The notes under the pieces are model-generated. The model ran no database searches, was not told where the DNA came from, and saw only the letters and a list, made by a program, of their open reading frames with translations. DNA of 63,551 bases from Peribolospora baueri (Eukaryota): positions 1-63,551 of the forward strand of contig JAMDHS010000109.1 in assembly GCA_029717555.1 (NCBI GenBank). Reading direction: 5' to 3'. Position numbers and translations under genes: made by a program. Below are positions 33,038 through 59,175 of this stretch, piece by piece (the stretch's first letter is position 1; each line of letters begins with the position of its first letter).

Positions 33038-33376
33038 GGGCCAGCGACCAGCTCAGATGACCAAGACCAACATTCAGACCGGCGAACTTTTTTTTTGTCA
33101 CCGACTCTTGTCGTCGGCGGCGACTTCAACCTCTGGGGCGAAGCCATGATACCTATGCTTGAAGCGCTCGAGATGGCTACATTACGACCAAGACAGACTA
33201 GGAGAAGAGAGATGACCGGGAAGAATACGAACTAGGAGACGAGGCGTGACAGGCGTGGATGTGATGGCGATGCTCACGAAAGGGAGAAACGCCACAAGCC
33301 GACAGGAAGGCTGAGAGGAAGGCGGTGGGAGGCGGTCGCCGTAAGCGAAGGCCCTTGTTTTGCTTCTTTTTGCTCG

Positions 33377-33680
33377 TCATGGACGCGGCTCGGTCGAGTG
33401 GACGCTAACCGCTTTCTTCCCCCGCAGCTCGACCGCCAACGCTACCTCGTCCAAGAGCGCCTCCGTCGGTGACTTGCCTGTCCCACCCTTCTCCACCTCC
33501 GACGCCCTTGCCTGACCTCTATCCACCTCCCTTCCCCCACCGCCCAGTCTCCTCCTCCGCCACCGCCTCCTCCTCCCACAACGCCGCACCCGCCTCCAAG
33601 CTCCCCTTCTCCGCCTCCGGCCCCGTCGCCGTCCAGCTCGGGCCCTTGGTGTCGCCGCCGGCGTCGCCGTCCTCTTCTGA
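33377..33680 (+). pseudogene. Inverted 3' part of the CFEM gene: intron 3' half, Ser/Thr/Ala stalk exons and GPI-signal tail
   Basis: Branch GCTAAC and CAG acceptor at 33427; exon 33428-33468 (STANATSSKSASV); intron; exon 33548-33680 (SSSATASSSHNAAPASKLPFSASGPVAVQLG, then after a 1-nt shift ALGVAAGVAVLF*). Splice phase matches exon 2. Confidence 0.8.
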
Positions 33681-33686
33681 TCTCAC

Positions 33687-34050
33687 CCGGTGACGTTGGA
33701 GCACCCCTGCTGCAGGAGGGCGAGACCGGCCTGCTGGTTGGCGGCGGAGCAGCTTGCCTGGAGGCAGGTGCTAATGGAGGTCACGGCCATGTTGGTGCAG
33801 ATGCAGGTGAGGTTGGCTGTATGGGAGAGTTGGCGGTGAGCGTGAGTGGTCGTGTGGGTCTCCGTCTATCCATCCATTCGTCCATCGCACACCGCGTCGT
33901 CGCGCCGCCGGCGCCGCTGGGCTACTCACTGACGGACGTGCAACTGAGGAGGGCTTGGTTGGTGCAGCTGAGCACGCACGGGGGCACGTTCTGGGCGAGG
34001 ACGCCGGAGAGGGTGGCGAGGAGGGAGAGGAGGGGGAGGGAGACGAGCAT
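33687..34050 (-). pseudogene. CFEM-domain GPI cell-surface protein, exons 1-2 (signal peptide + CFEM); 3' exons lie on the opposite strand
   Basis: Exon 1 34050-33930 and exon 2 33816-33687 encode MLVSLPLLSLLATLSGVLAQNVPPCVLSCTNQALLSCTSVTNLTCICTNMAVTSISTCLQASCSAANQQAGLALLQQGCSNVTG (8 Cys, CFEM spacing); donor GTGAGA at 33686-33681. Confidence 0.85.
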
Positions 34051-34130
34051 GATGGGCGGCGAGTGTGGGGCGACTAGGTGGGAGTGGTGGGAGGAGAAGA
34101 GGCGAAGGGAAGGGAAGGCGCTGGCGTGGC

Positions 34131-34136
34131 TTTATA
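34131..34136 (-). promoter_or_regulatory. TATA box of the CFEM gene
   Basis: TATAAA on the minus strand ~80 nt upstream of the ATG at 34050. Confidence 0.55.
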
Positions 34137-34374
34137 CGTATCCCCGGCGAGCCGTGCGTGCCTCAAGCGCAAGCCAGTCCAGTCGTCTTTCTTGTTTTCC
34201 TTCTTTTCTTGTCTCTCTCCCTCCTCGCCTTCTTCCTTCCCCCTGCCAGCCTCACCCGCGCCACCCCTGTTTCTGGCCCAGACGAGACAATCAAGGCAGG
34301 AGGAGGAGGAGGTCGACGGCGGAAGGATACCATCCATGAGCCCTTCGCCCGTCTTTTGTTGGTATTGGCGAGAG

Positions 34375-35674
34375 GTAAGAGCCCCCGACTTCGAGATCAC
34401 CCTGAAGCAGAAGGACCCCAAGAACCCCGTTCTCACCCATGAGAGCCCCTCGGAGCTAAAACGACTCGTCGAGGGCGCCCTTAAGACACACCACACCCTA
34501 CCCCCTTCCTCCACTGACGCCAAAGTCCGCGCCGTCAGTCGACACGCTTCTAAGGACATCCTGATCATCTTTGAATCCGCTGAGTCTGTTTCCTTTTTGA
34601 GGGAGCGCAACGGCTGGGTGGCAAAGCTGGACGGGGGTCTCCTTATCACACGTCCGACCTTCCCGATCATGATACACGCGGTCCCCCTCAGCTTTGACCC
34701 GGAGAAGGATTTGGGAGAGCTCGCGGACTCCAATGCACCCATCTTCAGGGTTGATGAGGCTAGCACAATAGAGCGCGCTGTCTGGGCCAAAAAGAACTCC
34801 CTCAATGACCCCACGAAGTCCCGCTCCTCTCTCATTGTCTACCTCTCATCTCCCGACACCGCTAACCGCGCTATCGACCGCGGCGTCGTCTACCAGAACC
34901 ATCTCCTGCGGTGTGAGAAGGCTCTCCGTCCCCCCCGCCAATGCTACAACTGCCAGCGCATGGGGCATACGTCTGACCGGTGCACGGCACCGCCTACATG
35001 CTCTCGGTGTGCTGGGTCCCACGAGACCAAGAAGTGCCCTTGCCCTAATGACCCCCCCTGCACCACACCCCGGGAGTGCACCCACTACTCACAGAGATGC
35101 GCTCTCTGCAAGTCAGTGGAGCACGACAGCTCTCACGATGACTGCCCCTTCAAAATCCGAGCCAAGACGCACCAGACTCTACTGAAGGGCCCCGGCGACC
35201 TCTACCTGGTCCCCCCCTCTCGCCGTTCTGAATGAACAGGTCGCTCCATCTCCCTTCGCTGCGCTCACCCACCCCCTCTCCGATTCCCTCCCCACAACCT
35301 ACTTCTCCCTCCCCCGCCACCACAGGGCCCCCACCCCCACTCCCTCCCCCTCCTCGCCGAACATCTACATCTCCTGCAATACAACCTCCACCACGACCGG
35401 GCATCCACCCACTCCCTACTCAATTCGTCATTCTCCGAACTGCTCGACCTCTTACTCGTCACCGAACCGTACCTACTCCCCAACTCATCCACCTCGCCAC
35501 CCTCCCACCCCTGTTGGCGCCCCTTCCTCCCCACTCCCCCTCCTCGCACACCACCCAACGCACGCGTTCGATCGGTAATCTTCGCCTCCCATAATCTCTC
35601 ACCCAACCAGGTCACCCCCCTCCCTACCCACTCCCTCGACATCTCTGCAATCCGCCTCTCCATCCCTGACTTGC
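34375..35674 (+). mobile_element. Non-LTR (LINE, Tad1-like) retrotransposon fragment: 5'-truncated ORF1 gag-like plus start of ORF2 APE endonuclease, cut by an LTR
   Basis: ORF1 to 35235 with zinc knuckles CYNCQRMGHTSDRC, CSRCAGSHETKKC, CALCKSVEHDSSHDDC; from ~35359 a frame reading HLLQYNLHHDRASTHSLLN..DLLLVTEPY...RSVIF...DISAIRL (APE motifs), ending at the LTR edge. Confidence 0.85.
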
Positions 35675-35945
35675 TGAAAGGTCTCAGGGACCTCGGTGCA
35701 CACACACGCAGACAACAGACTAGCGACCAATCTGTGGGCTGTCTGAAGGATGCGAATAGGTGTGACTTGAGGGGAGGAGAGCAAGAGTGGGCAAAGCGTT
35801 GCCAGCTCATCGCTCTCTGCGCGCGCAAGTCTGCGCACGCACCCCTCGTCACACGACCGCCCGCTCGCATAAGGCGAGCGGCAAACTACGTACATGTCCC
35901 CGGTGTCTCGCCCAAGTCCCCTCTCACTGACCCCGGATCCTAACA
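35675..35945 (-). mobile_element. 3' LTR (~271 bp) of a Ty3/Gypsy chromovirus
   Basis: Minus strand TGTTAGG...CCTTTCA with imperfect inverted ends; immediately preceded by the polypurine tract AGAGGGGGAGGG (35957-35946); interrupts LINE ORF2. Confidence 0.75.
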
Positions 35946-36093
35946 CCCTCCCCCTCTAGGCCGGCTGCCGGCCGACCTAAGAACTCATAGCCTCGTCCGT
36001 GGGCGCAACGAGGACCTCCGAAAGGGGAGGGAAAATTTGCCTCGGCCCAGAAGGGTCGGCCGAGGGGAACCCGGGATTAGTGACGGGAGAAGG

Positions 36094-36300
36094 TCAGTGA
36101 CCCTCTTTGCGCCGAGGCAGTTGCTTCGGCGTGGCAACACCCATAAGCTCCAGATAGCGATCCAGAGCCTCAGTGTCGTCTACTCCCGAGAGTGGCTCGG
36201 GTGTAACACCTCCTACAGTCCATTGGACGAAGAGGAACAACGAGTTGCCGCGCCACTCATGGCCGACAATCTTGTCGATGAACCATTCCTGGTCCGACAT
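36094..36300 (-). mobile_element. Chromodomain at the C-terminus of the Gypsy integrase
   Basis: MSDQEWFIDKIVGHEWRGNSLFLFVQWTVGGVTPEPLSGVDDTEALDRYLELMGV, upstream of the PPT and LTR on the same strand. Confidence 0.85.
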
Positions 36301-37300
36301 TTTCACGAGATCCTGGGTCATCTTGGATTCAGGAAAACATTGGCAGCTATCTGCACTCAAGTGTGCTGGCCGTTAATTTACGCAGATGTCTCTGCGTTCT
36401 GCAAGTCATGCGCGACTTGTGCGATGATTAAATCATCGACTCAAGCCCCGCTTGGGCTTGCTCATCCTCTCCCGGTACCGAGGGTACCTTGGGAGGTCAT
36501 TGCCATGGACTTTGTGGGACCCTTCCCACCGTCACATGGATTCGATTACCTCTGGGTGATCGTCGACAAGCTGACCAGCATGGTCCGGCTTGTTCCAACT
36601 ACCACCCGGGTCACAGCGAAGGAGCTTGCTAAGCTCTTCCTGGACCAGGTGTGGAAGTTTCACGGACTTCCGAACGCGATCATCAGTGACCGCGACTCGA
36701 AGTTCGTCTCCAGGTTCTGGAGAGAGCTCCGTCGACTCTTGGGCACGCAGCTGCTCATGTCGACGGCCTACCATCCCCAGACGGATGGCTCCTCGGAACG
36801 GGCGATTCGCACCGTTTCGAGTATCCTCCGAGCGTTCGTGAGCTCGGATCAGACCGACTGGTCTGACAAGCTCCCGCAAGTGGAGTTTGCCATCAATTCG
36901 ACGGTCTCTGCAACCACTGGTTGCACGCCGTTTGAATTGAACTACGGGTACACCCCATCTTCCCTCCGCCTCGTCGCGACGGAGGTCTCGTTCCCTGGTG
37001 TCCGCAAGTTTGCGGAACAGGCCAGGCTAAACTTGATGAGAGCGCATGACGCTATCATCGAGTCTCGAACGCGCTCTACAGCGCGTACTAACTCCTCTCG
37101 ACGGGAGGAGAAGACTCCGTTCAAGGAGGGAGACCTAGTCTACCTCTCGACGGAGAACCTGGCCCTGCCGAAAGGGAGAGCCAGGAAACTTTCTCCCAAG
37201 TTCATTGGGCCCTTCCGGATCACGGAAGCACGACCGGAGTCGTCCAACTACACGTTGGCACTGCCTCCGGACTTGGGGAGGATTCACCCCAAGTTTCACT
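36301..37300 (+). mobile_element. Ty3/Gypsy integrase H2C2 + catalytic core + SH3-like region, inverted relative to the rest of the element
   Basis: HEILGHLG...CKSCATC; MDFVGP (D), ISDRDSKF (D), HPQTDGSSER (E); KLSPKFIGPFRI; IHPKFHS; open frame throughout. Confidence 0.92.
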
Positions 37301-37388
37301 CATCTGTGCGAAGTCGTAAGCCTTGCGCGAGTCCCGCGCAGGGAATTTCTCATCATCGTTCGGCACGTAGGGCCGAAGCAACGCCGAG
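37301..37388 (-). mobile_element. Integrase-to-chromodomain linker fragment
   Basis: Minus strand reads SALLRPYVPNDDEKFPARDSRKAYDFAQM, the segment expected between ...FHS and SDQEWF. Confidence 0.8.
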
Positions 37389-38019
37389 GGATTCATTTTT
37401 GCTGTTCTTCAAACGCCCTTATTATAAAATGTTTTATGTTGTATTGGAACGATTAACTGCCGCCCATACTGCTCAAGGACGCCTTACCTACAGGGACTGC
37501 CCAGTGAGCAGTGGCTCCTCGTCGGTTGTGGCTGCGCCAGAGAGACGGCTTGCAAACGACCGGACTCACAATCAAAAGGACACCGGCAAGTCATGTAGTT
37601 CAAAACTGCTTCACGCGGGGGAAGACTGTCCGTACCCCAGCCCTTCTCGAAATGGTGATAGGTACACCGCTGCGCGAGTACCATCGTACTCCCAGTGCCG
37701 CTGACCTGAAGCCATCTCAAGACGCCCATCGTCGTGCACGCCGGGACAGGAGGCGGGCGTTAGGCCTCTCTATCAAACGCACATAGATTTATAAATAATA
37801 CATCAACTATACTAAGTGTATTATTTGGCCATTGGCCGCAGTCAGAAGAGATAAATAGGGTTAGGGTCAGACACGGCGATTCTGTACAAGACCTTCACAG
37901 GACGACTGCGGAAGTGCTTCCGACTCGCCAGATCTTCCACGGACCCTCTCATTGTCGCTCAAGGCAGCGCGCAAGGCACCAATCCATCAAGGCAACTTCT
38001 CAAGCCAACCCAAAAGAAA

Positions 38020-39389
38020 ATGTGGGTTCTTGATTATGTTGGGCGGATTCGCCAGAGTGTGGTGATTTGGTTGATCTGACGGACGGTACTATCGCCGCTC
38101 CACTCGGCTTTGCGTTCGCTCTCGCTCAGGTCTGAGGCTCCTCGTGGTCGCGGTGGTTTCGGTAGGGGCAGGGGTGGCAGGGGCGGCCGAAGGGGCCCCC
38201 GCCGCGGCGGTCGCAGGGATGAGGAGAAGGAGTGGGTTCCCGTGACGAAGCTCGGCAGGCTGGTCAAGTGAGTGTAGTCGTCAGATGGCATGCCCAAGTC
38301 GCGATGGATGGACGAGGAGGGCTGAGCAACGGCTAGAGGCTGAACGAAGTCGTCTCTCTGGTAAACAACGACGCGCTCACGCTACAGGGACGGCAAGATC
38401 AAGTCTATTGAGGAGATCTACCTCTTCTCCATGCCCGTCAAGGAGTACCAGATCATCGACTTCCTCCTGCCCAAGCTCAAGGACGAGGTTATGAAGATCA
38501 TGCCCGTCCAGAAGCAGACCCGCGCCGGTCAGCGCACCCGCTTCAAGGCCTTCGTCGCCATCGGTGACTTCAACGGTCACCTTGGCTTCGGCGTCAAGTG
38601 CGCCAAGGAGGTCGCTACTGCCATCCGCGGCGCCATCGTTCTCGCCAAGCTCTCCATCATCCCCGTTCGTCGCGGTTACTGGGGTAACGCTCTCGGTGAA
38701 CCGCACACCATCCCCATGAAGGTGTCCGGCAAGACCGCCTCCGTCATGTGCCGTCTCATCCCCGCTCCCCGTGGTACTGGCCTCGTTGCCGCTCCCGCGT
38801 CCAAGCGCATGCTTCAGCTTGCCGGTGTTCAGGACTGCTACACCCAGTCTGCTGGTCAAACGTGAGTCTTGTTCAGCTGAGCGTCAGCTGCTGTTGGGCT
38901 TTGAAGGATTTCATTCCTGACGGCCCTTTCTTCCTTCAATTCAAATTTTCGGGTGCCGACAGCGCGACTATGGGCAACTTCGTGAGCAGTCTTGTGATTT
39001 ATGGCATCCGCGATACAGAGCTGACTTTTTCGTCTTTACGAATATTTTCCCGCTGGAACGACGTCTTGCGATCTACAGTTGAAAGGTGAGCATGCTGTCG
39101 CTGTCTTCGTTAGCATGATCAATCCTCGATCGGCTGTACTGACTGTTATCCCTTTTTGCTCCTCGTCGCAATAATAGCCACCTTCGAGGCAGTGTCCAAG
39201 ACGTACGCCTTCCTGACTCCCAACCTCTGGCGCGAGATCGCTCCTCCTCCGGTGAGTGCTAGAAGTCGTGTTGTTCTAGGCGTTTCCTATGTGCTCATGA
39301 CATCCGTGCATCCCTCATGATCCCTGCAGGCGCCCTACGACGAGTTTTCGACCCATCTTGCTCAGGCGGGCAAGAAGGCCGTCTACTGA
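38020..39389 (+). CDS. RPS2: 40S ribosomal protein S2 (uS5), multi-exon
   Basis: RGG-rich N-terminus, [101 protein letters not shown]. Confidence 0.97.
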
Positions 39390-39497
39390 GCTGCTCTCGG
39401 TTCCATATAGGCTTCCTCTCGTCATGTCACACTAGCCATTTTCTAAATGCATTCGCTTCAGATCCCATCCGATCGGATCCGTTCGTCTCGCATCCTC

Positions 39498-40337
39498 TCA
39501 AGGCCAGCCTACAAGCTTGAGCCAGGCCCCCAACTTGTCCACGCACTGATCCTCTTCCTCATTAATCAGGAAATGTCCCGTCTCGTCGTCCGATGGCGTG
39601 ACTCTGGAACGCCTTGGGATCTCTCACGAAGTCCGCCCACACGCGGTCGACGTCGAAGCGGCGCCGGAGGTGGGCGGAAGAGAGGATAAGCGTGGGGCAC
39701 ACGATGGGTGGCTCGGCGGGGCGGAGGTGAGGAGCGATTGAGGAGGACAGGTCATCGTGCAAGTCGACCGTGGCGCCAGCCCGATACTGGAAACGATCAT
39801 GGGTAGAGTAAGGCGTGTCTGAAAGAAAATGGCGAAGCGCTTTATGCGCAGAAAGAGAGCAGGACCAGCGCTCACGTCTTCACATGCGCCTTGAATGCAC
39901 TAGGGCGCATCGATATAAGGTCGCGAGGCGTCTTGGATGGCCTGTTCGAAGTCGACCTTGCGCTCCATCTTCCACCTCGCCCCAGCCCACGACTGGATGG
40001 TGAAAAGCAATGTGCCCTCTCAGGCTTGCCTTGAATGAGCATTTCGGCTGCTGGGCTGGCGAGGAAAATCCAGTGGTAGCTCTTCATCATCTCGCCCCAT
40101 CACCCCCCTCCCATCGAGCCTGTCGCCCGGACCGCTCTCCTTGGCGACGCCGTCCATGGCCGCCCAGACGTAGCTGCCCGGCACAATGTCTAGGAACACC
40201 ACGCCAGCGACGCGCTCGGGGAAGGCGACAGCGAGGTTATAGGCCAAGCGACCGCCGCGATCGTGTCCCAGCGCGATGAACGGGAGCCGAGGCCGAGGGC
40301 AGAGATGAGGTCGACAACGTCCTTTGCCACCGCGCGC
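39498..40337 (-). pseudogene. Alpha/beta hydrolase of haloacetate dehalogenase type, 5'-truncated and disrupted
   Basis: RAVAKDVVDLISALG, GHDRGGRLAY (Asp nucleophile), LDIVP, YHWIFLA, ACED|YRAGATVDL, ETGHFLINE; frameshifts and an in-frame TAG at 39902-39900; no N-terminal third. Confidence 0.8.
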
Positions 40338-40784
40338 ACGAGTACCGCAAGTACAAGCTCCGGGACAGCGTGAAAAGGCTGTGGCTCTATGAGGTCAAGC
40401 CTGTCTCCGCCATTACGTGCGTTTTTCCTTCGGTCGATGATCGAGACCTAGTGCCTCATCCTCTGTCGAGAGTCTCGCTGGCAGCCATCCTGCCAGCTTG
40501 CGACGATCTGACGACTCTTCGTCCACCACAACCTGATAAACAGCCACGTTATCGAGGTTGGCCCTGCAAGACGACCGGGAGAAGTGCGCGACCCGAGCGG
40601 AATAGGGAACGACGACTTCGATGCGGGACGTAAGTTATCCAAGTACGGCTATCCCGTGTTAGGCATGTATCGACTCGATCGGCCCCTCGACTTGCGCGTG
40701 CTCAAGGAGTGGCTCGGCGTCGCGCCGCCGCAGGCGTTCATGTACGTGCCGAGTGAACTGTGCGAAGGCGTGAAGGTGTTTTGA
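40337..40784 (+). pseudogene. 5'-truncated fungal protein of probable PUA/ASCH-like type
   Basis: Begins abruptly HEYRKYKLRDSVKRLWLYEVKPVSAIT, intron, then VIEVGPARRPGEVRDPSGIGNDDFDAGRKLSKYGYPVL...PPQAFMYVP; no start codon or N-terminus. Family assignment is from memory of motif shape. Confidence 0.6.
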
Positions 40785-41844
40785 TTCGATGGGGCCACGG
40801 TCGGCCATGAACTGCATCATCTCTCTCGTGCACCGATGACTCTTCTGATACCCCTTTGGAACGCCCAATGCAGCGTTGTCAGGGGCCGTGTCCACCAGGT
40901 CGAGCTGTACGACCACCTCGAGGCCGGGCCTCTTGTGGAGAAAGGCCCAAGCAAGATGGAAGGCGAGCGCAAAGCAAATAATCGTCCCAGCGTGTGGCGA
41001 GCTGTTCTGCTGAGCGCCGATGTGGAGCATCGATTTTCTCGACTCGTGTGAGTCATTTGTCTCGGAGAGAGACGCAGGAGCCACGCGAGTGTCTGGAGGG
41101 ATAAACCGACGAGGAGGAGCGAGTCGATGAAGTCGCGCTTCCATACGTAGCCTCCCAAGCCCAGGGGGTTATGGACGGCATAGTCGTGTTAAAGAAGTGG
41201 CATTTTGCTGGTGTCAGGGCGCGCGCTTTAACAAGGCATTTCGGTAGCACTGTTATTCGCAGCTGAGACCGGTTCCCTCATACTCCGGTTACGAAAGTCG
41301 GCAAGCCTCGTAGATGCAAAGAAGCAGGTGTTGCCTTCGAGAAGCAAATTGCGCATCGACCTGGACCTGCGATGAAGATCGGGAATGGCTGAAGGAGTGC
41401 ACACACCTGTGAGAAGAGTGGTCGAAGAAGGAGGAAGCTCGGACTGTCTATAAGTGCCCCGAGCTCGCACTGCAAAACATCTTTATGAACACCCAGACCC
41501 AGTTGATGGGGATAGAGAGTCGGACTGAGCCGTCCTTCCCGCGCACCGGCCACGCGACCCGCCGCGCAAGAAAGTAAACGCCCGTGATACGCACGTGATA
41601 TTTAAACTGCGGCGATCCTGCTTACATGGCCCTTCGATCGCGCGTGCCATCTCCGAGCTGGATCCGCGTCTCGCTGTCTTCGAGCTCGTCGTTCGTGTCA
41701 AATCCGTCCCTGGCCGGGATCAAGGCAAATAGGCACCGTCGGCCGTCGTTGACCCTTCTTTCTCTCTCCACCGCTCGACCTCATCTCGACAGTTCTCTGG
41801 CATCGCACAGAGAGCGCTCTAGGTCAAGCGAGAACTGATCCATC

Positions 41845-44800
41845 GTGGCCAAGAAGAAGAACAAGGGTGACCAGAAGCGCGAACGCTCCTCCGCCCCCGG
41901 CCTTCACGCGTCCCCCTCGCCATCGCCGTCGCTGGGCCCCGCGGAAGTGGACCTTCAAATCGGCGTTGGCATCGACCCGACCCTGTCGCCGGCCTCTGTC
42001 AGCCCGCTACCCGCTATGCCATCCGAGCCAGTGCCTCCACCCAGGGAGGTGCTCGACCTCCCCGTGCCCATGCTCACCGCGATTCGCTTCACCGACGTCG
42101 CCCAAGCCGTCGTCAGCGTCGTGTATCGCATTTTGGTTTATCTTTTCTTGAGATGGGTGAGTGAGCGCGCACGGCCCTTGTATTCTATTTACGGACATGT
42201 TTCCTGCCCCGTGGTTTTATGCGCCGCGTCGAGACGACCTGCTGACGTCGTCTTCGTTCGACCTTTGGCGATGACAACATATGCAGATTCCCGGTCGCTT
42301 CGGCCCCAAGCTCATCATCCCCCTCTACATCCTCTTCCTCGTCTTGTCACTCTACCACGACCAACTACTCCTCTCTTGGACAGCACGCGTAGTTGCCGCC
42401 GCTGGTCTTGACACCAACCGATCGGCGGACCCGATCGTGAAGGAGCTGGCTGAGCGCGTCGAGGTCGTGGCCGGTACGTTGGAGGGTAAGGAGGTGGATG
42501 TGGCGGTCGAAAAGGAGGTAATCGGTATAGAAAAGGAGGATGAAGGCATTGCAAAGGCGGAGAAGCCGAGCTACGCTGCCGTGGCCAAGGCCGGCACCTC
42601 GGAAGATCTCTCTGCCGAGAAGCCCAAGAACGGGGAGGAAATCGTCATTTCCAAGGAACTCGCCGTCGTCTCTCCCGCTCCGCCTCCTCCGGCTCCCGTC
42701 GCTCGCCCGCCGGGTCTGTTCTCAGGACTTCTGGGTCTACCCACCCTGTCTCGCCCGTTCAACATGTTCGTCCTGCTCTTGCACAGCCTTATCTTCCTCG
42801 TTTTCCTCGACTCCCTCCTCTCTCCTGTCTTGCCCTTCACCGCTCCCGGAGGCTATACCACGTCGACCAGCACGCTCACCTTTGCCAGGACTGGTGGCAT
42901 GGGTCCTCACTGGGCGCGCATTCACGTACGCTACCCTTTCTTCGAGACCGCTCTGATCGACCAAGAGGACGTGGAGGACATGCGCATCGCCGAGGACATC
43001 GAGGCCGAGATCAGCGGACGCGACAGGGAGCTCGGCGAGCGGCGCCGGGAGGGCGTGAAAGTGGTGTATAGGGAGAGGAACAAGGCGAGCGCCAAGTGGG
43101 AGCTCGGCAAAAGCAAGCATGATCAGGTGGCTTGGGTCAGTCCGGAAACCGACTGGACGGGCTCGGTGAGGTTGGATGGACTGGAGCCGGCTACGGAGTA
43201 CGAGTACCGACTCGCGTTCCTCAACAACACCTTCGCTCCGTATCCCGTCACATCGCTCACCTTCGTCACCTTCCCGGACCCTCGCGGTTTCACGATCCTT
43301 CCTTCGAGAGAAAAAGCCGTGCCCTACGGCCCTTTGCCGAACCCGAACCCTGTTGACGATCCGGCGCACTTCAGTTTCGTCGCCACGAGCTGCACCAAGC
43401 CCGACTTCCCCTACCCTTGGATCCCCAGCTGGGTGCCTCTATTCGGCAAGGGCTCAGCGGGGAGGAACGTGTTGCATGGCGCAGCTCTCATGGCCGAGAA
43501 GCTCATCGAAGGGATCGGGAAGGAGACGGACGGAGGGAAAAGAAGAGGAAGCGCGGTCCGGTTTTTGTTGTTCCTTGGGTGAGTAGGTGGAGGTCTCTAA
43601 ACTTAACGATTGATTCGATTAGCCTTCCCAGGAGCATGCGCTAAGTGTGCGCTCTATTTCTCTTTCACAGCGACTTCATCTACGCGGATGTGCCCTTCTT
43701 CGCCGGACCGTCGCTCGAAGCCTATCGCCGACTGTACCGCAACATGTTCGCCAGTCTGAGTTTCCGAAGGATTTATGAGCGGATACGTGAGCAGAGGAGC
43801 TAGGGGGCCACTTTCTTGGATTGTTTCGTTTCGACTGGCTGTGAGATTAAGTTTTCTCCGACTTCTACTCCGTACAGCCGTCCTGTCCATCTACGACGAT
43901 CACGAGATCAGCAACAACTACGCCGGCCTCGGCAACGACACGTCCCACGCAGAGTTCCGGCCCGCTGAGCGAGCTTGGAAGGAGTATCTCGGCCAGGCGA
44001 ACCCGGAGCCTTTGCGGGAGAACGCGAATTACTACACTTTCCGGTGAGCGTCGGCGTCTCACTCCGTCGACGAGATGGATCTCTGTAGTGCTCACGTCCA
44101 CTTACCACTCGCTCGGACCCACAGCTACGGCGACACAGCGTTCTTCGTGTGGGATACGCGCCGCTACCGCTCCAGCGCCTCCGCTCCAGATGACTCGTCC
44201 AAGTCGATGCTGGGCCAAGAACAGAAGGAAGATTTCCTGCGGTGGCTCGGGGCCGTGAACTCCACCGCCACGTTCAAGTTCATCGTGTCTTCCATACCTT
44301 TCACTTCGATGTGGAAGGGCCCTGACGGACACAAGGACACTTGGGCCGCGTACATGACGGAGAGGAATGAGCTGATGGACGTGATGCAATACGTGCCCAA
44401 CGTCATCGTCCTGTCGGGTGATCGGCACGAGTTCGCCGCGACCTCATTGAGGGACACGGGTGAGTTTCTCTCTGCTCGTTGTGGGCGCCGTCATCCTCAC
44501 TCACCTCTGACCGGGCGACAAAAATTTTCCCCGTCCTTTGTCGTTCGCAGTCCTCGAATTCTCTACGTCGCCACTCAACCAGTTCTACGTGCCCGTCAGG
44601 ACCATGAGCGAGAATAACTCTCTGGGGTACGAAGGAGAGGAGAAGGTGCTTAAGGTGAGACTGGATCGGCGACGCGATGTCCGGTGCACGTACGTTCAGA
44701 GAGACGGATTGCCCGTGCTTATCAACCGTGCCACGATTCCCGCAGTATTTGCCCGACGGGAATGTCAAATGGACGACTTTCGAAGTCGACACACGCGACC

Positions 44801-44961
44801 CTCTGGAGCCGGTGCTGCGCGTCAAGGTGACTATTGACGGCGAAGACAAGTGGCACGTGGACGTGGTTGGCAAGCCCGTCAAGGAGCCCAGTGTCGCCCT
44901 CGGAGGGTTGAGCAAGACGCTACAGGAGCTCCTAACCTTTTTGCCTCGCCCGTGGTTCTAA
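41845..44961 (+). CDS. Membrane-anchored PhoD-family alkaline phosphatase/phosphodiesterase; apparent GTG start
   Basis: N-terminal TM segments; LDGLEPATEYEY, FVATSCTKPDFPY, LLFLG|DFIYADVP, IYDDHEISNNY, FFVWDTRRYRS, TFKFIVSSIPF, DTWAAY, VLSGDRHEF, EFSTSPLNQFY. Confidence 0.9.
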
Positions 44962-46007
44962 ACGCCCCCACGGGCTTGCCCGGCGGGCGACGAAAGACGC
45001 GGAAGCGCCGGTCCCAACAAGCGAAGATAAGAGGCGAAAAATGGAATTTTGTCCACACAAGCAACGATCCGCACTAGCTTTTCCCCTTCGTATTATTTTC
45101 CTTCCGCTTTTGCTCCCTCGTTTTTTTTTGGTCTCTCGCTCGTACGTCCACCCTAATGAGTCCTTCTTGATCCATCTGCCTACCCACGTTTGCTGGCTTA
45201 AACGCCCGAACAGAACCGTATCTTTCAGGGGTTCTGTATGTCGTTCTCGAGTTGCGTCCTGTCCCTTCTTCAAGTCATGCAAGTAGATGATGACGAAATG
45301 CCCTGGCCGAGCCCCCATCTGACGGACGCGAGAAAGACCGGGTGCGCCACGGACCTGTTCCAGTCAACGTTACGTGTCGAGGGATAGTCGAGAGATACCC
45401 CATCATCGAAAGGTGCGGCGGGGTAACCTCGCCCGACTGTCAACGGGGAACCTGCGACATCCGCGACCTCCACTGCCTCTCGTGTCGCGGCAAGCAGTTG
45501 ACATACAACAGACATACATACGTACATACATACAAACAGACAGACAGACATGGGACACGGGCAGACCCTGCGCCGCGCACAGAGGCTTCGCACTTGGTTC
45601 GTGAAGGGTGAGGGGGCAAAGGTCATAAAGAGGTAGCAGGCGTCCGCTCCGCGTCCGGTGGGCGGGCGGATGAGGGAGAGAGGGGTGGGGGCAAATCGGG
45701 ACGCGGCGAAGGGCCCGCGGCCCCCCGCCCACACTTTGGTTTGCTGGTTTGCAGGCGCGCACGCGCGCGGTCCGACTAGTTCCGTCAGAGTTGGCAAAAC
45801 ATGGGGCTTTCGCGAGACGTATGATGATATGACATGGATATTGCGAAGACGAGGGAAGAAAGAAAGGAAAAGTACAGAATGGGGCTGGACTTCGGAATTC
45901 GAGGAGAGGCGTCGGACTTTTTTCCTGTTCAGTGAGCGATGGGCATCCCTGTCTCACGCAAACCGAACCGAACGGAACGGATCGAGTAAAGTCAGACGAG
46001 AGAAGAC

Positions 46008-48654
46008 TCATCGCATAGGACGAGCTGATGGTCCGGGAGAGAGAAGGGGCATGGAGAAAGAAGAAAGAGGCAAAACTCGCCTTGCGCCGCTCGGAGCCTC
46101 TTGCCGCCGTAGACGAGCCCGATGAACAGGGAGAATCCGAGAACGACGTTGAGCACGGTTTGTGTGACGAGCGATGCGATGTAGCCGTCCTTATCTGCCC
46201 ACTCGACGCTAGTAGAGGCGAGGCGAGGCGAGCGAGCGACGAACGAACGAATCACGACGGGTCAGCGCGACGACGACGACGTCGGTCTCAACTTGCGGAG
46301 GACGACGTGGGGGCATCCTACGTACTAGAAGTACGGCACGGCAAACGCAAAGGCGCACTTGACAAAGTTGAAGCTGTGAACGAGCGAGAGGTGAGGAAGG
46401 AAGACGGCGAAGAGGAGGAAGAAGGAAGGTGCCTCTTGGCTCACATTGCCACGCCGTTCATCGACTCGCTGACGTACGTGTCAACGATATAAGTCTGTAA
46501 CAGCGTCCGAAAAGACAGCCCGTCAATTCCGTTCGGGCGAGCGGCGCGGCACGGCGCGGCGCTTACCTGGACGACGCCGGCAGCGGCAACGCTTCCGACC
46601 CAGTAAATGGCGAGGCCGACGATCGGCACCGGCCACTCGAGGCGCTTGGCGACGCCGACGCCAAACATGAGTAAGCCAGCGGCGAGGAAGGGGAGGATGG
46701 GTAGCTGTTGGACGAAGAAGCGAGAGAGAGGGGCGAAGCGCGTCTCGATCGATCGATCAAAATCAACTCTTCCTTCGACCTTCTTTTCGCACTCAACCTC
46801 GAACTCCGCGCCGCGAACTCACGAGAAACCACATCCTGTACTCGGGCTCGCGAATACCGCCATTGCGTCGGACGAGGCGGGCGACCAGCGAATCGGCCAT
46901 GACGCCGCCGCCAATCTTGCCAATGACGCCTCCGATCAGGGCCGATAAAAAGAGGAGGCCGACCATGCTCGACTTGAAAGCGTAGGGCGGTTCGGCGAAG
47001 ACGAGTGGAATGGCCACGTTGACGCCTACGCTCCACCCAAAGACGAGAGAGTACCACACGGAGGGCAGGAGGATGGGCAGGTAGGTGAACATGACGAGCG
47101 GCCGGAGCGTCATCATAAGAAACTGGCGACGCAGGTGAGATCTGGTGTCAGGCCAGGGTCGTGGAAAGTTTCACGGAAGGACGTACTCACCGTTTTGGGA
47201 CGGTGCCAAGGCATCCACACCGCTCCGAGCTTTCCAGTGTAGGTCACAGGGGACAAGTCGGCACCCTCTCCTGTGCTCCCACTCGATGTCATACGACGGG
47301 TGTACAGAGCTGATGGCCAAAGGGACGACAAAATGAGAAGTGACACAAAAAAAAACTCGAGAACAGACAATCGGCTCCTCACTTTCCGGGACGAACAAGA
47401 CGATCAGCACCAGGCTGGCGGCGGCCAAGATGATGCCGAAGTAGTAGAGCCATTGCCAGCGCAAATGCTCAAGCATGAAGCCGCCGATGACGGGCCTGCA
47501 AAAGTAGAAGGGACGGCAGGGATCAGACCGTGTTTAAAGCAAGGGGGGGGATGGGATCGGAACTTACGCAGTCACCGGGCCGCCCGCAACAAACAAAGAC
47601 CAGAAGGCGACGGCGAATCCACGGTGCTCCTTGGAGAAGATGTCGGAGGCGGTGGTGGCGCCGAGGGTCAGGGGTGCCGCTCCTAAAAAGCCGATGACGA
47701 AGCGGGAGGCGTAGAAAGAGGCAAAGCTCTTAGTAAAGGCGGGCCAGAACATGGTCGCAAAATACAAGGTGGCGGACAAGATGTCTGCATGATGAAGGAC
47801 GGCTGGCCGTGAGCGGAAGGTCGGGCGGGCGCCGCGCGCGCTACGACGACGAGACGTATAGAGGGAGGGAGGACCAAACAAGCTTACAAGTGGGGCGACG
47901 GCCTACCGTCTTCGAAAGGGGGCCGTAGAAGAGAGGGCCAATGCCGGTGCCAAGAATGGTCAAGCCTTGAACGAAAAATTGGCCCACCGCGGGCGGGTAA
48001 GAACGGGGCCAAGTCGAACGCGCTCGGGGGATATGCAAGTTTGCAGCAGCGTCAAGACCCCACTCACCGAGCGAGTCGGCGCTTGCGGGTATACTGACGT
48101 GGTAATACTTGGCCACCTGGGGACCCGAGGGTCAGGGCGAGTGCGACAAGGTGATCAGCCCGACGGCGCGACACACAGCCACAGCCACGTCCGCCCGTGT
48201 CTGAGAGCGACGTACGGGTACAATAGCAATGATGTGGGCCGCGGCGCCGTAGTTAACTTGGGTGGCAAGGGAAGCGTCGGCACGACTCGGTCAGTCGTGG
48301 TCGGGTCGTTCGAGAGCGAGCTATGAGAAGGACTCACCGGAGGCGGCGCTGAAGGAGACGATGAACAAGATGAGAAGCTTTCGCCAAGTGGGCATGTTCT
48401 GCCGACCGGGGATTAGAATATGTGTCAGGATACGGTCGGGGCGACCGGGGAAGGCCAAACGGCCCGCCTGTCTCCCTTCCGGTGCTCCCTTCTCCTTGAC
48501 TTGTCCCCGGGCGACTCACCTGGGGATCGGCGGGATCATCGCTGACGACGTCCGTTCCTGGGTCGATGGCAATACCGCTGTCACACGCCTGAGGAGTCTG
48601 GGACTGGGTCAGGCTGCCCTTCTCCGCGGCGTCTGCGGCTAGGGAAAGGGACAT
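46008..48654 (-). CDS. Major facilitator superfamily transporter (DHA1-like), multi-exon
   Basis: DDPADPQ|NMPTWRK, GIGPLFYGPLSKTVGRRP, RFVIGFLGAAPLTLGATTASDIF..EHRGFA, WQWLYYFGII...LFVPE, RRNGGIREPEYR, TYIVDTY, YGGKRLR. Confidence 0.88.
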
Positions 48655-50604
48655 GTTGAGTGAGCTGTAGAGGGGTGAAGGACGAGGGAAGGAGAAGAAT
48701 GGGGGCTGCTCCGTTGCGGGGGGGATGCGGGGGCGTGTATAAATGTGAACAAAAACGCGGTCCCCTTCCTCCGTTTCTCTCGCACAAGCAAGCCTAGTCC
48801 GGCGGTGCGTGCGGTGGCGATCTGCTGCAGCCGTCCTCGCAGGGGGATGGAGATTAGGAGGGAGACGGCGTGCGTTGTATTGAAGAGCAGAGCCGACTGT
48901 CGAGACCCCGTCCATCCTCCTTGCTCGCCCCTCCGTCCTTGTCCTTGGCCTTCTCACGAGGATGCATGGCCGGACCGACGGCGATGCCAGGAACGAGCAG
49001 AGCAGCACGGACGGATGGGCGTGCTCTGTCGAGGTCGAGGGCGCGGCGAGTGGGTGGGGCGTGGCGTTGAAGACGACGTTCGGACGGCCAGCGAGCGCAA
49101 GCCCGGCGTGGACACGGGGGCCGGTCTGGACAGGATCGGGATCGACTCGTTGAGGTGATATGGGAGACCATGACCATGACCTGACTGACGTATGGACGCT
49201 GAGAGCCAGGTTGGCGAAGGAGTCGGCTCATACTCTGCCAGCGGGAGAACGATCGCCCTGACGCTGTCCCTCGAGCCCGTGACCAACTGGGCCGCCCCGC
49301 GCGGACAGCTCAGAGGGACACGGAGGACACCCCGTGCGCTGCGCTTGCCTTGCGGAGGGAGAGAGAGGGACGACGATGGCCAGTGAATGGGTGGGTGGCT
49401 CGTTTATGAGGCGGGCGTTGTCTCGGACGGCCAGGGTCGCCTCCGACGCTCCTATTTTGCCATTATATTGCGGGCTCGGAAGAATGGAGGCGAGGCGGAT
49501 CGTGCACGGTCAGTCGATGGGTCTCTCTCTTCGACGCTCTCCTCCGCTGTATATAACAGGGCCCATCGTCCAGATGCAGATGGAGACGACCTGACCTGAG
49601 AATGCGCTCCACGACGGGTGTTAAGTAGGCGCCGGGGGCTTAGGATGGATGCCACCTCTGCCGCCCACAGCGCCAGCCAAGCCAAGCCCCGGCCGGACGT
49701 GCGCGTTTGATAGAAAGCTAAGCCGAGAGTCCAAGTCGGCATCGACGGACATAGTCACGTTTGGTCCGGGCACGTTATTAACCGTCTTGCTATCCGTGTC
49801 CGGCGATCGTGTCATCAGTATTAAAAAATCGCATGTTTCACTCCACTTCCCTCGTCGCCGCTTACCATTGCTGCTTAGCTGTTGTTGCCCGTCGTGTTGC
49901 CTCCTTTACGCCACTGCCGTGCTCCGCGGACACCGGTGCCGACAGACGGACAGCTTCCGCCTTCCGGAGACTCCACCACAACTTTCCTTGCACACCACTA
50001 GCCCCCCGCCGCCCGGACGCTGTGCGATGAGGACCGGTCGGTGCCTGTCATCGCCGCGCTGTCAGAGGCCTTCCACATTCGTTCGTGTCGCCTTCCGTCC
50101 GCGATCAACGGCATCCATCCATGCCGCCAAGTCGTCGTGCCGTCGTTCTTCTTTCCGCCGTATCGACCACCGTCGCTTGCTTACGTCCTCAGCCTCACGC
50201 ATACAGTACGTGCGTCGCGTCTCCGGTCCGCCTCATGCTGGCGAGTGAGTCTGCGGATCAGACCAACGTCGGTCCACACCAAGTTCGAAGGACGCACGGC
50301 ACCAGACACCGGACTTAGCTCTTGGCCGTGCCCTGATGCTAAATAACGTCGGTGCCGGACCATGTCCGCCCGTCGTCGGGCTAGCACTGAACCGATCCTA
50401 CCCTGCGAGCACTATATTAAGGGAATGGGGGCCTCGTCTATATCCTCTTTATCTCTCGTCCTCCTTCCTCCCTCTCATTGACGCTTTCTTTCCAGCGCTC
50501 TGACACGTCCTTTCTGGCGCTCGCTGCGACTACGCACCGGAACGCATCACCTCCGCTCTCCTCCCGAGTTGCTGGCGAAACAAATAAAAACGCTTGAACC
50601 GGAA

Positions 50605-53600
50605 ATGGTCGCGGCTGCCATCAACCTCCCGACATCGTCCCTACCCAACCAGCATGGCATCTCTCCGGACAATCGGACCTGGACGCCGCCTGACTTCAGT
50701 ACTGACCCTGATCCCCTCCAGCTCGTTGACTGGCACGCGGAGAGGAGCCCAAACCATGTGCGGCACGTCTGGGAGGCAGCCGAGGGCGATGCTCAGGCTC
50801 AGAATGGATTGAGGCGCATGACCAACGCCGAGTATCGCAGGGCCGTCCATCGCTGCGCACGCTACCTCGCCTCGCACCTCGGCCCGAATTCGGGGAATAA
50901 GCGCTACACCATCGCCATCCTCGCCGCCATCGATTCGCTCACCTATTCCATCCTCTATTTCGCCATATGGCAGCTCGGCCACGTCTGCTTCCCCATCTCG
51001 TCCCGCAACTCCGCGCCTGCCGTCGTCCACCTGATCACCAAGGTCGGCGTGACACATGCCATCGTCGGCGGCGGCTCGATGCCCGACCTCTTTCAGCAAG
51101 TCGAGCAAGCCTTGGCCAAGGAGAGCAAGCAGGCGACCATCCAGGTCATCGAACCGCCGACGTTCGAGACCATCGCTCCCCAATATGGTCCCAACGGCCC
51201 CGACGAACCCGACGTGGAGCTCTTGTCGCCTCCGAAGAAGCCCGAGATGGAAGAACCGATGCTCATCTTGCATTCCTCCGGTGCGCTTGCCCCTTCCGCC
51301 CATCCTATCCTTCCTTTCCTCTTGCTCTGTGCTCTCCGACTGCCACGCTCAACCCTTGCCCCATCGTCCCGCCGCGGGGCACACAGGCTCGACCAGCTTC
51401 CCGAAACCCATCATCTATCGGTCCTTGCACCTTATTCAGTGTTTGGCCGCGCCCTGGTACGGTGAGGGCGACGCCTGCGGCTCTGGTGTGTCTTCTTTTC
51501 GCAATACATCCCACCCTACCCTCGCCCCGCTTTGCCGTTTTCTTGAAGACCCGTCGTTCACGCTGCTTTCGCCTTCTCTTCTCCGCTAGTCATCGGTGCG
51601 ATTGGCATTCCAGCCTTCCACGCCATGGGCGTCCATCAGCTCGTCTTGCAGCCGCCTTCCACCGGAGCCATCGTGGCCGTCCACCGCCCGACCTCACCGG
51701 TCATGGTCGCCACACCGGAGAACGTCCTCGCCGGCGTTGAGAAGACGCGGTGCGATAGCATGCTCGCCGTACCCGCCTTCTTGGAGGTGAGTGCTCGCTC
51801 GGGCTTTGACCTAAGTAAGGTGCCGGTCCGACTAACATTCGTATTGGGCGTGTGTGTTTGTTTTAAGATGTGGTCAAAGGACCCCGAGGCGATCAAGGTC
51901 CTCGCAAAGGTCGAAAACGGCGTGGTGAGCGTCACTTCTTCTGGGGTCTCCTCTAAATGCCTCTAGCCATCCCTTTGCAAGCCCCCTCGCTGATCGCGAA
52001 GATACCTTCCATCGTTTGCCATCTCAGTACTTCGGCGGAGGGCCCCTCAGCCGTCCTGCCGGCGACGTACTCGCAAGCCACGGGGTCAAGATCGTCAACC
52101 TGCTTGGAATGACCGAAGCATTCGGCGTGACGAAGTACCCTTGCAATCCCACTGGCGGCGCCGAAGACTCGGCCTGGGAGTACTTTCGCTTCGGAGACTG
52201 GGCCTGCATCCGATTCGAGGCGCAAGACGATGGTTCTGGCGTCTATGAGCTCATCTGCTGCGTGAGTGACATTCGAGATGACGACGATGCGTCGTGACAA
52301 CCTTCGTTCGTGGCCCCTTCAGACAGCTCAAATCGCGGTTCTTTCTACTCATCGGGTTTTTTTTTTTTGCAGACGAGCGACATCTACAGGCCGGCGTTCT
52401 TCAACGTGCCCGAGAAGCAAGAGTTTGCCACAAACGACCTGTTTGTCCAACGTACGTATTCTCCTCGCCTCTCTTCTTTTGTTCTTCTCCACCGGCCCGG
52501 TCCGGTCCGGCCCGGCCCGTCTGACCTTCCCCAACCCTCTCTGCAGATCCGAAGGACCCCACGCTCTGGCGTATGGTCGGACGGAAAGACGATCAGATCA
52601 TGCTTTCCACCGGCGAAAAGGTGCGACGACGACGACGACGGTCTTGCGCGTTTGCTGCGCCTCGTTGCGCCCTTCGCTCACCGATTCTTCGTCTGTCTTT
52701 TTTTTTTCTTCGCACAGACCAACCCTGGGCCCATCGGTAAGCAGAAGCAATACGACGCGGCCTAACTCCTTATCTTGCCTCGTATCCATCCCTCATCCTC
52801 ATCCTCATCCTCATCCCGTCCACGACCCATCTCAAGAGGGCATCCTCAAACAAAGCCCCTTCATCTCGGAAGCGGTCATGTTCGGACGGGCAAAGGAGCA
52901 GAACGGCGTCCTCGTCCAACCGGCGCCTGGACACGAATTCGACCCCAGCGACGAGAACAACTTGACAGCCTTCCGGAACAAGATTTGGTGAGACCCAAGC
53001 GCGAGCCCGACGGACGGGCCAGAAGCGGCGGCACCAAGACGGAGAGAGAAAGAGAGAGAAGCTTACAACCCGCCGTCCTTGACTTTTTGCAGGCCCAAAG
53101 TCGAGGAGGCCAACGCGTTCGCCCCGCAGCATTCGCGCATCTTCAAAGAGGTGAGCGGGAGTTCTCTTTTCTGCGAAGTGCGACGCGGCCCTCGCTCGCT
53201 CGCTCGCTCGCTCGCCGCATCGGTGTTGTCGTTCCTGTCTTAACTTTGAGCGCCCTACGCCTCGGACCTCGGTTCGCGTTCTACAGATGATCCTCGTCGC
53301 GAAGCCGTCAAAGCCTTTCCAGTTCACCCCCAAGCGTACCGTCCGGCGCAAGGAAATGATTCGCATTTATGAGGACGAGATCGAGGCGTGTTACAAAGCC
53401 GTCGAGGTATCATCCCGCCTCTCTGCCGGCATCGCTGCGCCGACATCGTGGTCCGAGCCCGAGACGCTTGGCTTCATCCGGACGCTCGTCGGCCAAATCC
53501 TCCAAAGCGGCGGGAGGCGATCCGAGGTGGCAGACGACGCGGATCTGTTCTCAAACGGCTTCGACAGGTGAGCGGCCACCGCACCGCATCGCATCGTGCT

Positions 53601-55336: not shown

Positions 55337-56218
55337 GTTTCTGGGCTGAGCGACACCGCCGACACGTGCAGAAGGTTAGATTAGAAAAGAAGACTTGTCC
55401 CGGTACAATGGATCTCCCATTGACGATAGAGTCCATCATATCATCGCCCAATGTGGGGAGGCATGTAGACACGCACGGGACGTGCTCTTCTGTTTTTCTT
55501 CATATATAACTGCAACGTCTCCTTTCGCCCGCCTTTGGACGAGCTCGCTCTCCTCTCTCTCCTTTTCTTTCTCTCGCCCCGACGTCCAGTGTGTGAGCGA
55601 AGGGCGGACAGAGTGAAGCACGTGACGCTCCTCCTGGGCGACAGTGGTCGCCGTGTGCGGAGCCAAGCCGACGTTGCGTTGACAGGTCGCTCGGCAGCTC
55701 GGGCTTGGCCGATCGGCCTCCGCCCGGCAGCTCGGCACACGAAAGTGCCGCGGGCGGGCGACCGACCACCTCCACCTCCACCGGGAGTGAATTTTTATGT
55801 CGTCGGATTCGATGCGAGCATGAGGGACTCCTTCTCGTTCCACCACGAGCACCCTCGTCGCAACTGTCGGTGCCGTGGAGATTCCTTTGCCTTTTTCCAT
55901 CACAATTGCCCGTCGTCACCTTTCCCGCCGTCGCCTTGCTCGCCGTCATCGCCTTTCTCGCCGTCGCCCTTCTTCCTGTCCCTCCGCTGTGCCGCTCGGT
56001 TTGAACCCTGGAGGGACGGAAGGGAGAGAGAGAGTTTGGAGATACAGATACGTATGTATGGGTAGCCGCTCGTCATCCAATCGTCTTTTGCGACTTCAAC
56101 CCCGGCGCGCCACACTCGTTTTGCTCCTTTCCTCCGCTCGTCTTGCTTCTTTTCCGCCTGCCCCGTTTTCTGCCTCCACCCCGCCGGCCTTCTCTCATTT
56201 CTTCGGTCGCAGCAAGCT

Positions 56219-58346: not shown

Positions 58347-59175
58347 TCTTGCCCATCATGTCATCTCTCGGCCTCCTTCCCTCCCTCCCCACTCCCCCTG
58401 TCAAGTTCGGTTTCATTCTCCATTTTATTCATGCTTAGACGGACTGGCCATGGCAAAATGTACCACACCATACATAGGCATTTCCAGTCGTCGCACTGGC
58501 CGAGCACTGACTGACATCGCAACAAGGCCCTCCCTTCCGCCCATCTCCGATCTTGCTTACGCCGCGTCGCGTCGATCCCGGAGATAATCGTCCGAACTGC
58601 TGCTATCACCAACTGCGACGATCCCCCAGCCTCGTCGACCGCTCGTCCCGTCTCGTCAGCATCACCGCCATGTCGAGTCATTACGAGCGGCCGGCTGGCT
58701 CCATTCCCATCCGCTCGACAGTGTTCCATACCAAACATCAGCATCTCCAGTCCATCCATCACAACTCACTGGCCGAGCACCGACATTGTGCGAGATGACC
58801 TCCGCCCATTTCCGATCTCGCTCGCGCCGCGTCGCCGCCGCACTCGGACGTATTCGTCCGATCTCCTATCGTCCAGTGCGGGGGACGGGTGGGAGGGAGG
58901 GGAGGAGGGGCAGGTCGTCCGAATATCCATGATCACCGCAACGTCGAGTCAGAGTCAGGGAGAGTAGCTAGCCAGCTGATCACTGCGCTGCTCGACCGCT
59001 CGTTGGCGTCTTCCAAAAGCCATACGGGTCGAGGTCAGAAGGCCGTCATAGAAGGAGACGGGCACTCAAGTTTAGATTCTTCGAGCCGTCTCTGTTCGCT
59101 TTTCCTCTTTTCTGCCTCTAGAGCTCGTTCAAAGAACGGCGGTTTTCCCTCCTCCTCGCTCCATCGCCGCTCCTC

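What the first reader, a model, noticed from the sequence alone, without database searches (positions are those of the whole stretch)
36094..37388. Chromovirus integrase scrambled into three pieces (B, inverted A, C) with essentially no sequence lost at the joins
Seen: core A (+, 36301-37300, ending AAG TTT CAC TC), linker B (-, 37388-37301, starting CTC GGCG TTG CTT CGG) and chromodomain C (-, from 36300). Joining A to B over the shared CTC and B to C over the shared ATG restores ...IHPKFHSALLRPYVPNDDEKFPARDSRKAYDFAQMSDQEWFIDKIV... in frame. A sits between CAT direct repeats (36298-36300, 37301-37303). A single inversion cannot produce this order; it needs two nested inversions or multi-step template switching. 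The frame of A is still open, so the event looks recent (inference).
Basis: partly seen in the sequence, partly recalled or inferred. Interest (0 to 1): 0.75.

Follow-up and report, generated by a model that had tools for sequence, protein, structure and literature searches.

The report
Scrambled retrotransposon at an inversion breakpoint
A dead jumping-gene fragment in a fungal chromosome really is cut into three shuffled pieces, but it is part of a DNA-repair scar at one end of a 26-kb chromosome inversion, not a trick of the jumping gene itself.

Summary
The scramble is real. Aligned separately to 120 intact Ty3/gypsy Pol proteins, A's end abuts B's start in 120 of 120, and B's end meets C's start with one shared residue in 117 of 120. 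Two read sets hold the locus in one unbroken contig at single-copy depth. No DNA-level sibling was found in the assembly.

Two runs of a sister organism lack the element and show a fourth displaced piece: 88 nt of host DNA (D, 37382-37469). D borders a ~26-kb inversion that ends inside an SRP40-like gene on the next contig. Either side of the B|D joint mirrors the other: an 88-nt piece, then an inverted block, then the continuation. Junction overlaps are 3, 1, 7 and 0 nt, and the CAT 'direct repeats' need no duplication.

Best reading (0.6): several breaks at two sites rejoined by end-joining, the DNA between them lost. Main rival: fold-back or template switching (0.22). Complex inversion breakpoints with flipped fragments are known (Drosophila O7, mouse hotspot double cuts). 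The scan had already noted other repeat-free inversions and fold-backs elsewhere in this genome.

The parts
36298..37301 (+). Piece A: integrase zinc finger, catalytic core and most of the SH3 (Tf2-like) domain; frame open; inverted relative to the rest of the element
   Evidence: Pfam PF17921, PF00665, PF24626; 52-61% identical to the 120 listed Pol proteins
37301..37388 (-). Piece B: end of the SH3 domain and linker, 80-88 nt depending on how shared junction bases are counted
   Evidence: Starts at the residue after A's end in 120 of 120 homologues; column check
36094..36300 (-). Piece C: chromodomain-like C-terminus of the integrase, with its stop codon
   Evidence: Aligns to P0026 725-785, where Pfam Chromo covers 728-770; no direct Pfam or PDB hit
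35946..35957 (-). Polypurine tract
   Evidence: Read from the sequence; identification from general knowledge of LTR elements
35675..35945 (-). Single 3' LTR, about 271 nt, TG...CA (alternative left end 35667); single copy in the assembly
   Evidence: a related copy in run X4 aligns over 35697-35895 and its loose ends resemble both LTR ends
37382..37469 (.). Piece D: 88 nt of host DNA upstream of the RPS2 gene, in opposite orientation to 37470+ in organism B; overlaps B by 7 nt (37382-37388)
   Evidence: Joint 37382/37470 'opposite strands', side 88, in X3 and X4; loose end behind 37469 matches own-genome C11:182-211
37470..63551 (+). Block S (continues to about base 185 of contig C11): ~26-kb segment inferred to be inverted relative to organism B; starts upstream of RPS2, ends in an SRP40-like gene
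63285..63459 (-). Exon of an SRP40-like gene; the preceding exon lies at the start of C11 and the gene has no recognisable 5' part beyond C11:~185
   Evidence: PF05022; consecutive exons in 81 of 120 homologues
34078..35674 (+). 5' part of a LINE-like element (ORF1 with zinc knuckles; start of an endonuclease-like ORF2) into which the LTR element had inserted
   Evidence: zf-CCHC E 8e-4, just under the cut-off; Atlas look-alikes include PRE_C2HC, score 0.90; no sequence homologue; the endonuclease call is a recalled motif with no Pfam hit
33350..34299 (-). Broken copy of a CFEM-domain gene whose 3' third (33350-33682) is flipped with 2 nt lost; the copy on C154 has the unflipped order
   Evidence: PF05730

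Best explanation
This is a repair scar. A non-coding 3' remnant of a Ty3/gypsy chromovirus-type element was cut at three places (before A, between A and B, between B and C). A second site about one inversion away was cut at three places too (inside SRP40, and on both sides of D). The pieces were religated by end-joining, partly on microhomology, in the order C | A inverted | B | D | S inverted | R. The DNA that lay before A (gag-RT-RNase H, 5' LTR) and the 5' part of SRP40 was lost or moved. Shown: order and orientation of A, B, C; D and S differing in orientation between organisms A and B; junction overlaps. Inferred: that organism B keeps the older S-D-R order, that all joins come from one event, and that end-joining rather than copying made them. 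The remnant cannot encode a working element.
For: Both internal cuts of the integrase are used twice to within a codon, with no gain or loss; each piece is single-copy in the assembly and in read depth. Two of the four junctions that could be read are flush (1 and 0 nt), which PMC3638133 counts as end-joining. The others share 3 and 7 nt; 7 or more has chance 4e-4 at a random join. Organism B holds D the other way round and continues into C11:182+. C10 and C11 are neighbours through one SRP40 intron, and SRP40 stops at the same point, so the window's state looks derived. No inverted repeat above 24 nt/71% lies in 35500-37700. Other near-flush rearrangements lie next door: the CFEM flip and a clean-cut site on C220 joined to 32964 and 35540 in organism B. 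Precedents: PMC7584159; bioRxiv 10.1101/2020.06.23.168138.
Against: Six cuts are needed, and plain random religation does not explain why B and D are both 88 nt and mirror each other. The ancestral link between the element and block S is not observed: organism B lacks the element and has its own rearrangement here. D's start (hence the 7-nt overlap) is the read tool's placement at 80% likeness, not checked base by base. In a tree, C did not group with A's nearest relatives. PMC3638133 itself says end-joining and template switching are hard to tell apart.
Confidence: 0.6

Rival explanations
1. Fold-back or template switching at two replication forks or resected ends (ODIRA-like or FoSTeS/MMBIR). 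Each end turned back on itself over an ~88-nt single-stranded loop (B, D); the loops were opened, annealed on the 7-nt overlap, and the product was put back between C and R.
For: Explains the mirror symmetry and equal sizes. The A|B and D|S joins are what a U-turn at each end of one segment would give. ODIRA spacers are within about 100 bp (PMC10766183). Fold-back relics are common here: 7 of 9 selected element loci have inverted arms, and 8 of 18 element loci have Pol pieces on both strands.
Against: ODIRA junctions sit on 2-14-bp inverted repeats and give copy gain. Here the two fold-back joins share 1 and 0 nt and nothing is duplicated. In the mouse fold-back products the microhomology lies at the fold-back join and the other join is flush, the reverse of this case. 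Extra steps are needed to lose both original arms exactly.
Confidence: 0.22
2. Separate inversions and a deletion over time, re-using the same fragile points.
For: The region is a patchwork with an older-looking flip (CFEM copy 93-96% identical to its paralogue); organism B has its own rearrangement here.
Against: Needs at least four reversals plus a deletion, with cuts re-used to within 0-7 nt and no repeats at the ends.
Confidence: 0.08
3. The retroelement machinery did it (reverse-transcriptase switching, auto-integration, or LINE twin priming).
For: The pieces are retroelement DNA nested in a LINE-like element; inverted A next to C has twin-priming geometry.
Against: B keeps the sense orientation, which twin priming does not give; no poly(A) tail or flanking duplication; no LTR end at any junction; host DNA (D, S) is rearranged in the same joins.
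Confidence: 0.04
4. Two unrelated insertions: A from one element landed in a B-C remnant of another, with a 3-bp duplication.
For: CAT on both sides of A; C's tree position differs from A's.
Against: A ends exactly where B starts in 120 of 120 homologues. B falls in a clade of 11 with A's four nearest relatives (support 0.78). C is only 68 residues and far from all homologues (distance 1.26 or more).
Confidence: 0.03
5. Assembly or library artefact.
For: Runs X1 and X2 may be the source of the assembly, are from one study and are held as contigs only.
Against: One contig per run spans four junctions at flank depth with 0 differences and no alternative joint, in two samples; no repeat copy exists to confuse an assembler.
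Confidence: 0.03

Closest known systems
Deletions with inverted local insertions at paired meiotic hotspots in mouse (bioRxiv 10.1101/2020.06.23.168138; passages and section 13 read)
   Same: Two break sites; small local fragments (16-709 bp) re-joined in inverted orientation; one case with an inverted insert from each site; left and right mirror each other; short microhomologies.
   Different: There the microhomology (median 5 bp) is at the flank-insert join and the other join is near 0; here it is the reverse. Here the outer ends are also re-joined to an inverted 1-kb and 26-kb block. No evidence for Spo11 here.
Drosophila subobscura inversion O7 (PMC7584159; passages read)
   Same: Natural inversion with a multi-break end, a microinversion at the breakpoint, a pre-existing fragile insertion-rich site, end-joining versus replication-repair models left open.
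   Different: O7 has inverted duplications of tens to hundreds of bases and a 2-kb microinversion; this case is copy-neutral to within a few bases and has flipped fragments from both break sites.
Mild one-off complex genomic rearrangements / chromothripsis (PMC3638133; passages read)
   Same: Clustered breakpoints, flush joins, loss plus unchanged copy states only.
   Different: Five junctions, below that paper's threshold of ten for chromothripsis; a natural fungal polymorphism rather than a tumour.
ODIRA inverted triplication (PMC10766183; passages read) and small inverted triplications (PMC13334657; abstract read)
   Same: Paired inversion junctions with a spacer under about 100 nt at the two ends of a segment.
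   Different: No 2-14-bp inverted repeats at the fold-back joins and no copy gain.
Chromoviruses (chromodomain-bearing Ty3/gypsy elements) of basidiomycetes (PMC2864245, search listing only)
   Same: Integrase with zinc finger, core, SH3 and chromodomain-like tail, then polypurine tract and LTR; named nearest proteins are from basidiomycetes.
   Different: Only the last ~1.7 kb is left, in three pieces; no clade assignment is possible without RT.

Membership tests
Chromovirus (Ty3/gypsy) | Ty3-type integrase: H2C2 zinc finger, rve core, SH3 (Tf2-like) domain | tested here: met
   nearest proteins have the order protease-RT-RNase H-integrase
Chromovirus (Ty3/gypsy) | Chromodomain at the integrase C-terminus | tested here: inconclusive
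   No direct Pfam or PDB hit; C aligns over the Chromo hit of P0026; 6 of 120 homologues carry PF00385
Chromovirus (Ty3/gypsy) | Polypurine tract followed by a TG...CA LTR | tested here: met
   35957-35946 and 35945-35675; related LTR in run X4
Chromovirus (Ty3/gypsy) | RT phylogeny, two LTRs, target-site duplication | not testable with these tools
   5' part not found: one LTR copy; no close RT among 28 scored of 61 candidates
End-joined complex rearrangement | Breakpoints re-used reciprocally, no copy gain | tested here: met
End-joined complex rearrangement | At least one flush join (0-1 nt overlap) | tested here: met
   A|B 1 nt and D|S 0 nt
End-joined complex rearrangement | All joins from one event | not testable with these tools
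   Needs population alleles or an ancestral haplotype
Chromothripsis (definition of PMC3638133) | Ten or more clustered breakpoints | tested here: not met
   Five junctions (six with the CFEM flip)
ODIRA inverted triplication | 2-14-bp inverted repeats at the fold-back junctions | tested here: not met
   1 and 0 nt
ODIRA inverted triplication | Copy gain of the segment | tested here: not met
   Single-copy depth and single match
ODIRA inverted triplication | Spacer within about 100 bp (mostly 40-80) | tested here: met
   B and D 80-88 nt, at the upper edge
Spo11 double-cut mutagenesis | Breaks at meiotic hotspots | not testable with these tools
   No hotspot map; D lies upstream of RPS2, B inside a retroelement
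LINE twin priming | One inverted 5' block, poly(A) tail, flanking target duplication | tested here: not met
   B in sense orientation, no tail, host DNA rearranged; features recalled, not from a call

The most novel reading that the evidence does not exclude
This fungal lineage uses a stereotyped break-repair route in which each broken end flips its terminal ~88 nt with a flush join before ends are joined, with no inverted repeat needed. The same route would account for its many repeat-free inversions and fold-back relics and for the destruction of its retroelements.
Probability: 0.13. Interest if true: 0.65.

Novelty: new member of a known kind. Interest (0 to 1): 0.3.

Why it matters
As it stands it is a base-resolved natural example of a complex inversion breakpoint in a fungus, readable because it cuts through a conserved coding sequence. 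It marks a ~26-kb inversion between two close relatives that also truncates one of two SRP40-like genes. If the mirrored 88-nt flips recur at other breakpoints of this lineage, the A/B pair would be a test system for how repeat-free inversions arise. It reveals no new retrotransposon biology.

Tried and rejected
Sibling element: none at DNA level; best other integrase relics in the assembly are 36-54% identical as protein and 67% over 146 nt as DNA, so junctions could not be read against an intact copy. Missing 5' part: no close RT among 28 scored of 61 candidates, a weak negative. 5' part of the truncated SRP40: not found, but one search also missed the N-terminus of the intact paralogue, so this shows little. 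A pattern from D found nothing in metagenome contigs. No RNA holder listed. Homologue search for the LINE-like ORF1 was empty. Organism B's loose end behind 33619 maps to C306 by a ~19-nt low-complexity match and was dropped as chance; the loose ends at 34224, 36178 and 38167 were not followed. Tree test of family identity: A clear, B compatible, C uninformative. CAT as a target-site duplication: rejected as unnecessary. Literature searches listed no report of this locus or of mirrored ~88-nt flips in a fungus; the library lacks most subscription papers, and no supplements were seen (breakpoint tables of the mouse preprint could bear on the comparison).

Full report
Setting. The window is all or the first 63,551 bases of contig C10 of a 22.7-Mb, 668-contig assembly. 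Intron-containing genes and named nearest proteins point to a basidiomycete fungus; the lineage was not narrowed further.

Observation. The + frame 36298-37299 holds an integrase zinc finger, core and an SH3 domain cut at model position 56 of 64. I aligned A, B (37387-37301, -) and C (36300-36097, -) separately to the 120 listed proteins of 1,035 homologues. A's end and B's start are adjacent in 120 of 120; B's end and C's start overlap by one residue in 117 of 120, abut in 2 and are misplaced in 1. Downstream of C lie a polypurine tract (35957-35946) and one LTR (35945-35675). The LTR interrupts the 5' part of a LINE-like element (no sequence homologue). The order needs two reversals. Trees per piece put A with P0001, P0002, P0003 and P0005 (support 1.0), B in a clade of 11 with those four (0.78), and C elsewhere at long distance, so family identity of C rests on position, not on the tree.

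Artefact check. Four runs of one study were laid on 31000-40000. X1 and X2 (organism A, possibly the source) each have one 11,200-nt contig over 34197-40000 with no difference, at the depth of the flanks, and no alternative joint. The assembly holds no second copy of the element or its LTR.

X3 (organism B) has almost no cover over 35541-37381, and X4 only a related LTR over 35697-35895. Both show a joint from 37382 to 37470 on opposite strands with an 88-nt side, and a loose end behind 37469. That loose end matches own-genome C11:182-211 with 2 mismatches. The window ends in an A-run and C11 begins with one; the flanking exons are consecutive parts of an SRP40-like gene in 81 of 120 homologues, so C10 and C11 are neighbours. 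Hence block S (37470 to C11:~185, about 26 kb) is inverted between A and B, and D (37382-37469) sits at the opposite end of it. Beyond C11:~185 the SRP40 frame has no serine-rich 5' part, whereas a paralogue on C516 has one. With the cut retroelement on the other side, this makes the window's state the likely derived one (inference).

Pattern. Reading outwards from the B|D joint: left, B, A inverted, C (older order A B C); right, D, S inverted, R (older order S D R). B and D are each 88 nt if the shared 7 nt are counted to both. Overlaps: C|A up to 3 nt (CAT, which can be A's His codon: His in 35 of 120 homologues); A|B 1 nt; B|D 7 nt; D|S 0 nt; at S|R four letters do not match organism B. Chance of 7 or more nt at a random join is 4e-4, of 3 or more 0.05. 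The CAT pair and the CTC pair therefore need no duplication. The four-piece order needs four reversals, if the element and S lay on one chromosome in that orientation, which is assumed.

Mechanism. Exact re-use of cuts without copy gain and two flush joins fit breakage and end-joining; PMC3638133 (passages) treats joins of up to 1 bp overlap as end-joining while warning that the two mechanisms are hard to separate. The mouse preprint 10.1101/2020.06.23.168138 (passages and section 13) reports deletions with inverted 16-709-bp inserts from each of two break sites, mirrored, but with the microhomology at the other join. PMC7584159 (passages) describes a natural inversion with a microinversion at a multi-break end. 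ODIRA (PMC10766183, passages) gives the paired-spacer geometry but needs 2-14-bp inverted repeats and copy gain, both absent; PMC13334657 was seen as abstract and outline only. I give end-joining 0.6 and fold-back or template switching 0.22. The equal size of B and D stays unexplained under the first.

Background. Of 18 element loci mapped with Pol proteins, 8 (this one included) have pieces on both strands; of 9 of them chosen for self-comparison, 7 have inverted arms of 72-95% identity. A CFEM gene copy at 33350-34299 has its 3' third flipped with 2 nt lost relative to the C154 copy. In organism B, 32964 and 35540 join the two sides of one site that is uncut on own C220. Earlier notes of this scan list other repeat-free inversions and fold-backs in this genome (unchecked AI notes). 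The region and the lineage are prone to such events, which lowers the surprise of this one.

Age. The open frame tolerates a few percent of drift (open in 68%, 34%, 17% and 3% of 2,000 simulations at 1, 3, 5 and 10%); organisms A and B differ by 29 of 1,993 and 66 of 2,516 letters in the flanks.

Verdict. Real, correctly described, but a repair scar of a known kind; the mirrored 88-nt pieces are the one feature worth a genome-wide test.

Noticed in passing
window 34355-35540: The LINE-like ORF1 stretch differs by 1 (X3) and 0 (X4) of 1,186 letters between organisms A and B, while the flanks differ by 1.5-2.6% (chance 5e-7 or less). In B it is joined to the C220 site. Suggests recent transfer between the two lineages; unexplained.
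   Followed up: partly
window 32964-35540 and G000:C220:~20440 (L028): In organism B both ends of this 2.6-kb stretch join the two sides of a site that is intact in the own genome, with at most 1 nt overlap: an ectopic insertion or a reciprocal translocation; contigs cannot tell which.
   Followed up: partly
window 33350-34299; L034/L040 (C154:203787-204772): Second copy of a CFEM-domain gene with a hydrophobic C-terminal tail, 93-96% identical to the C154 copy, with its 3' third flipped.
   Followed up: yes
window 63285-63551, L029:1-185, L038/L039 (C516): Two SRP40-like genes with different intron positions and little DNA similarity; the C10/C11 copy looks 5'-truncated at the inversion end.
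   Followed up: partly
window 33080-33150: A short frame with a VVGGDFNL motif that recalls a LINE endonuclease (recalled motif), upstream of the LINE 5' part; may be another displaced piece.
   Followed up: no
L018, L041, L042, L023, L025, L017, L012: Retroelement relics elsewhere in the genome are fold-back inverted repeats, the largest a 1.4-kb palindrome at 95% (L018:1770-3145).
   Followed up: partly
run X4 against window 35697-35895: A related LTR is present in one of the two organism B runs only.
   Followed up: no
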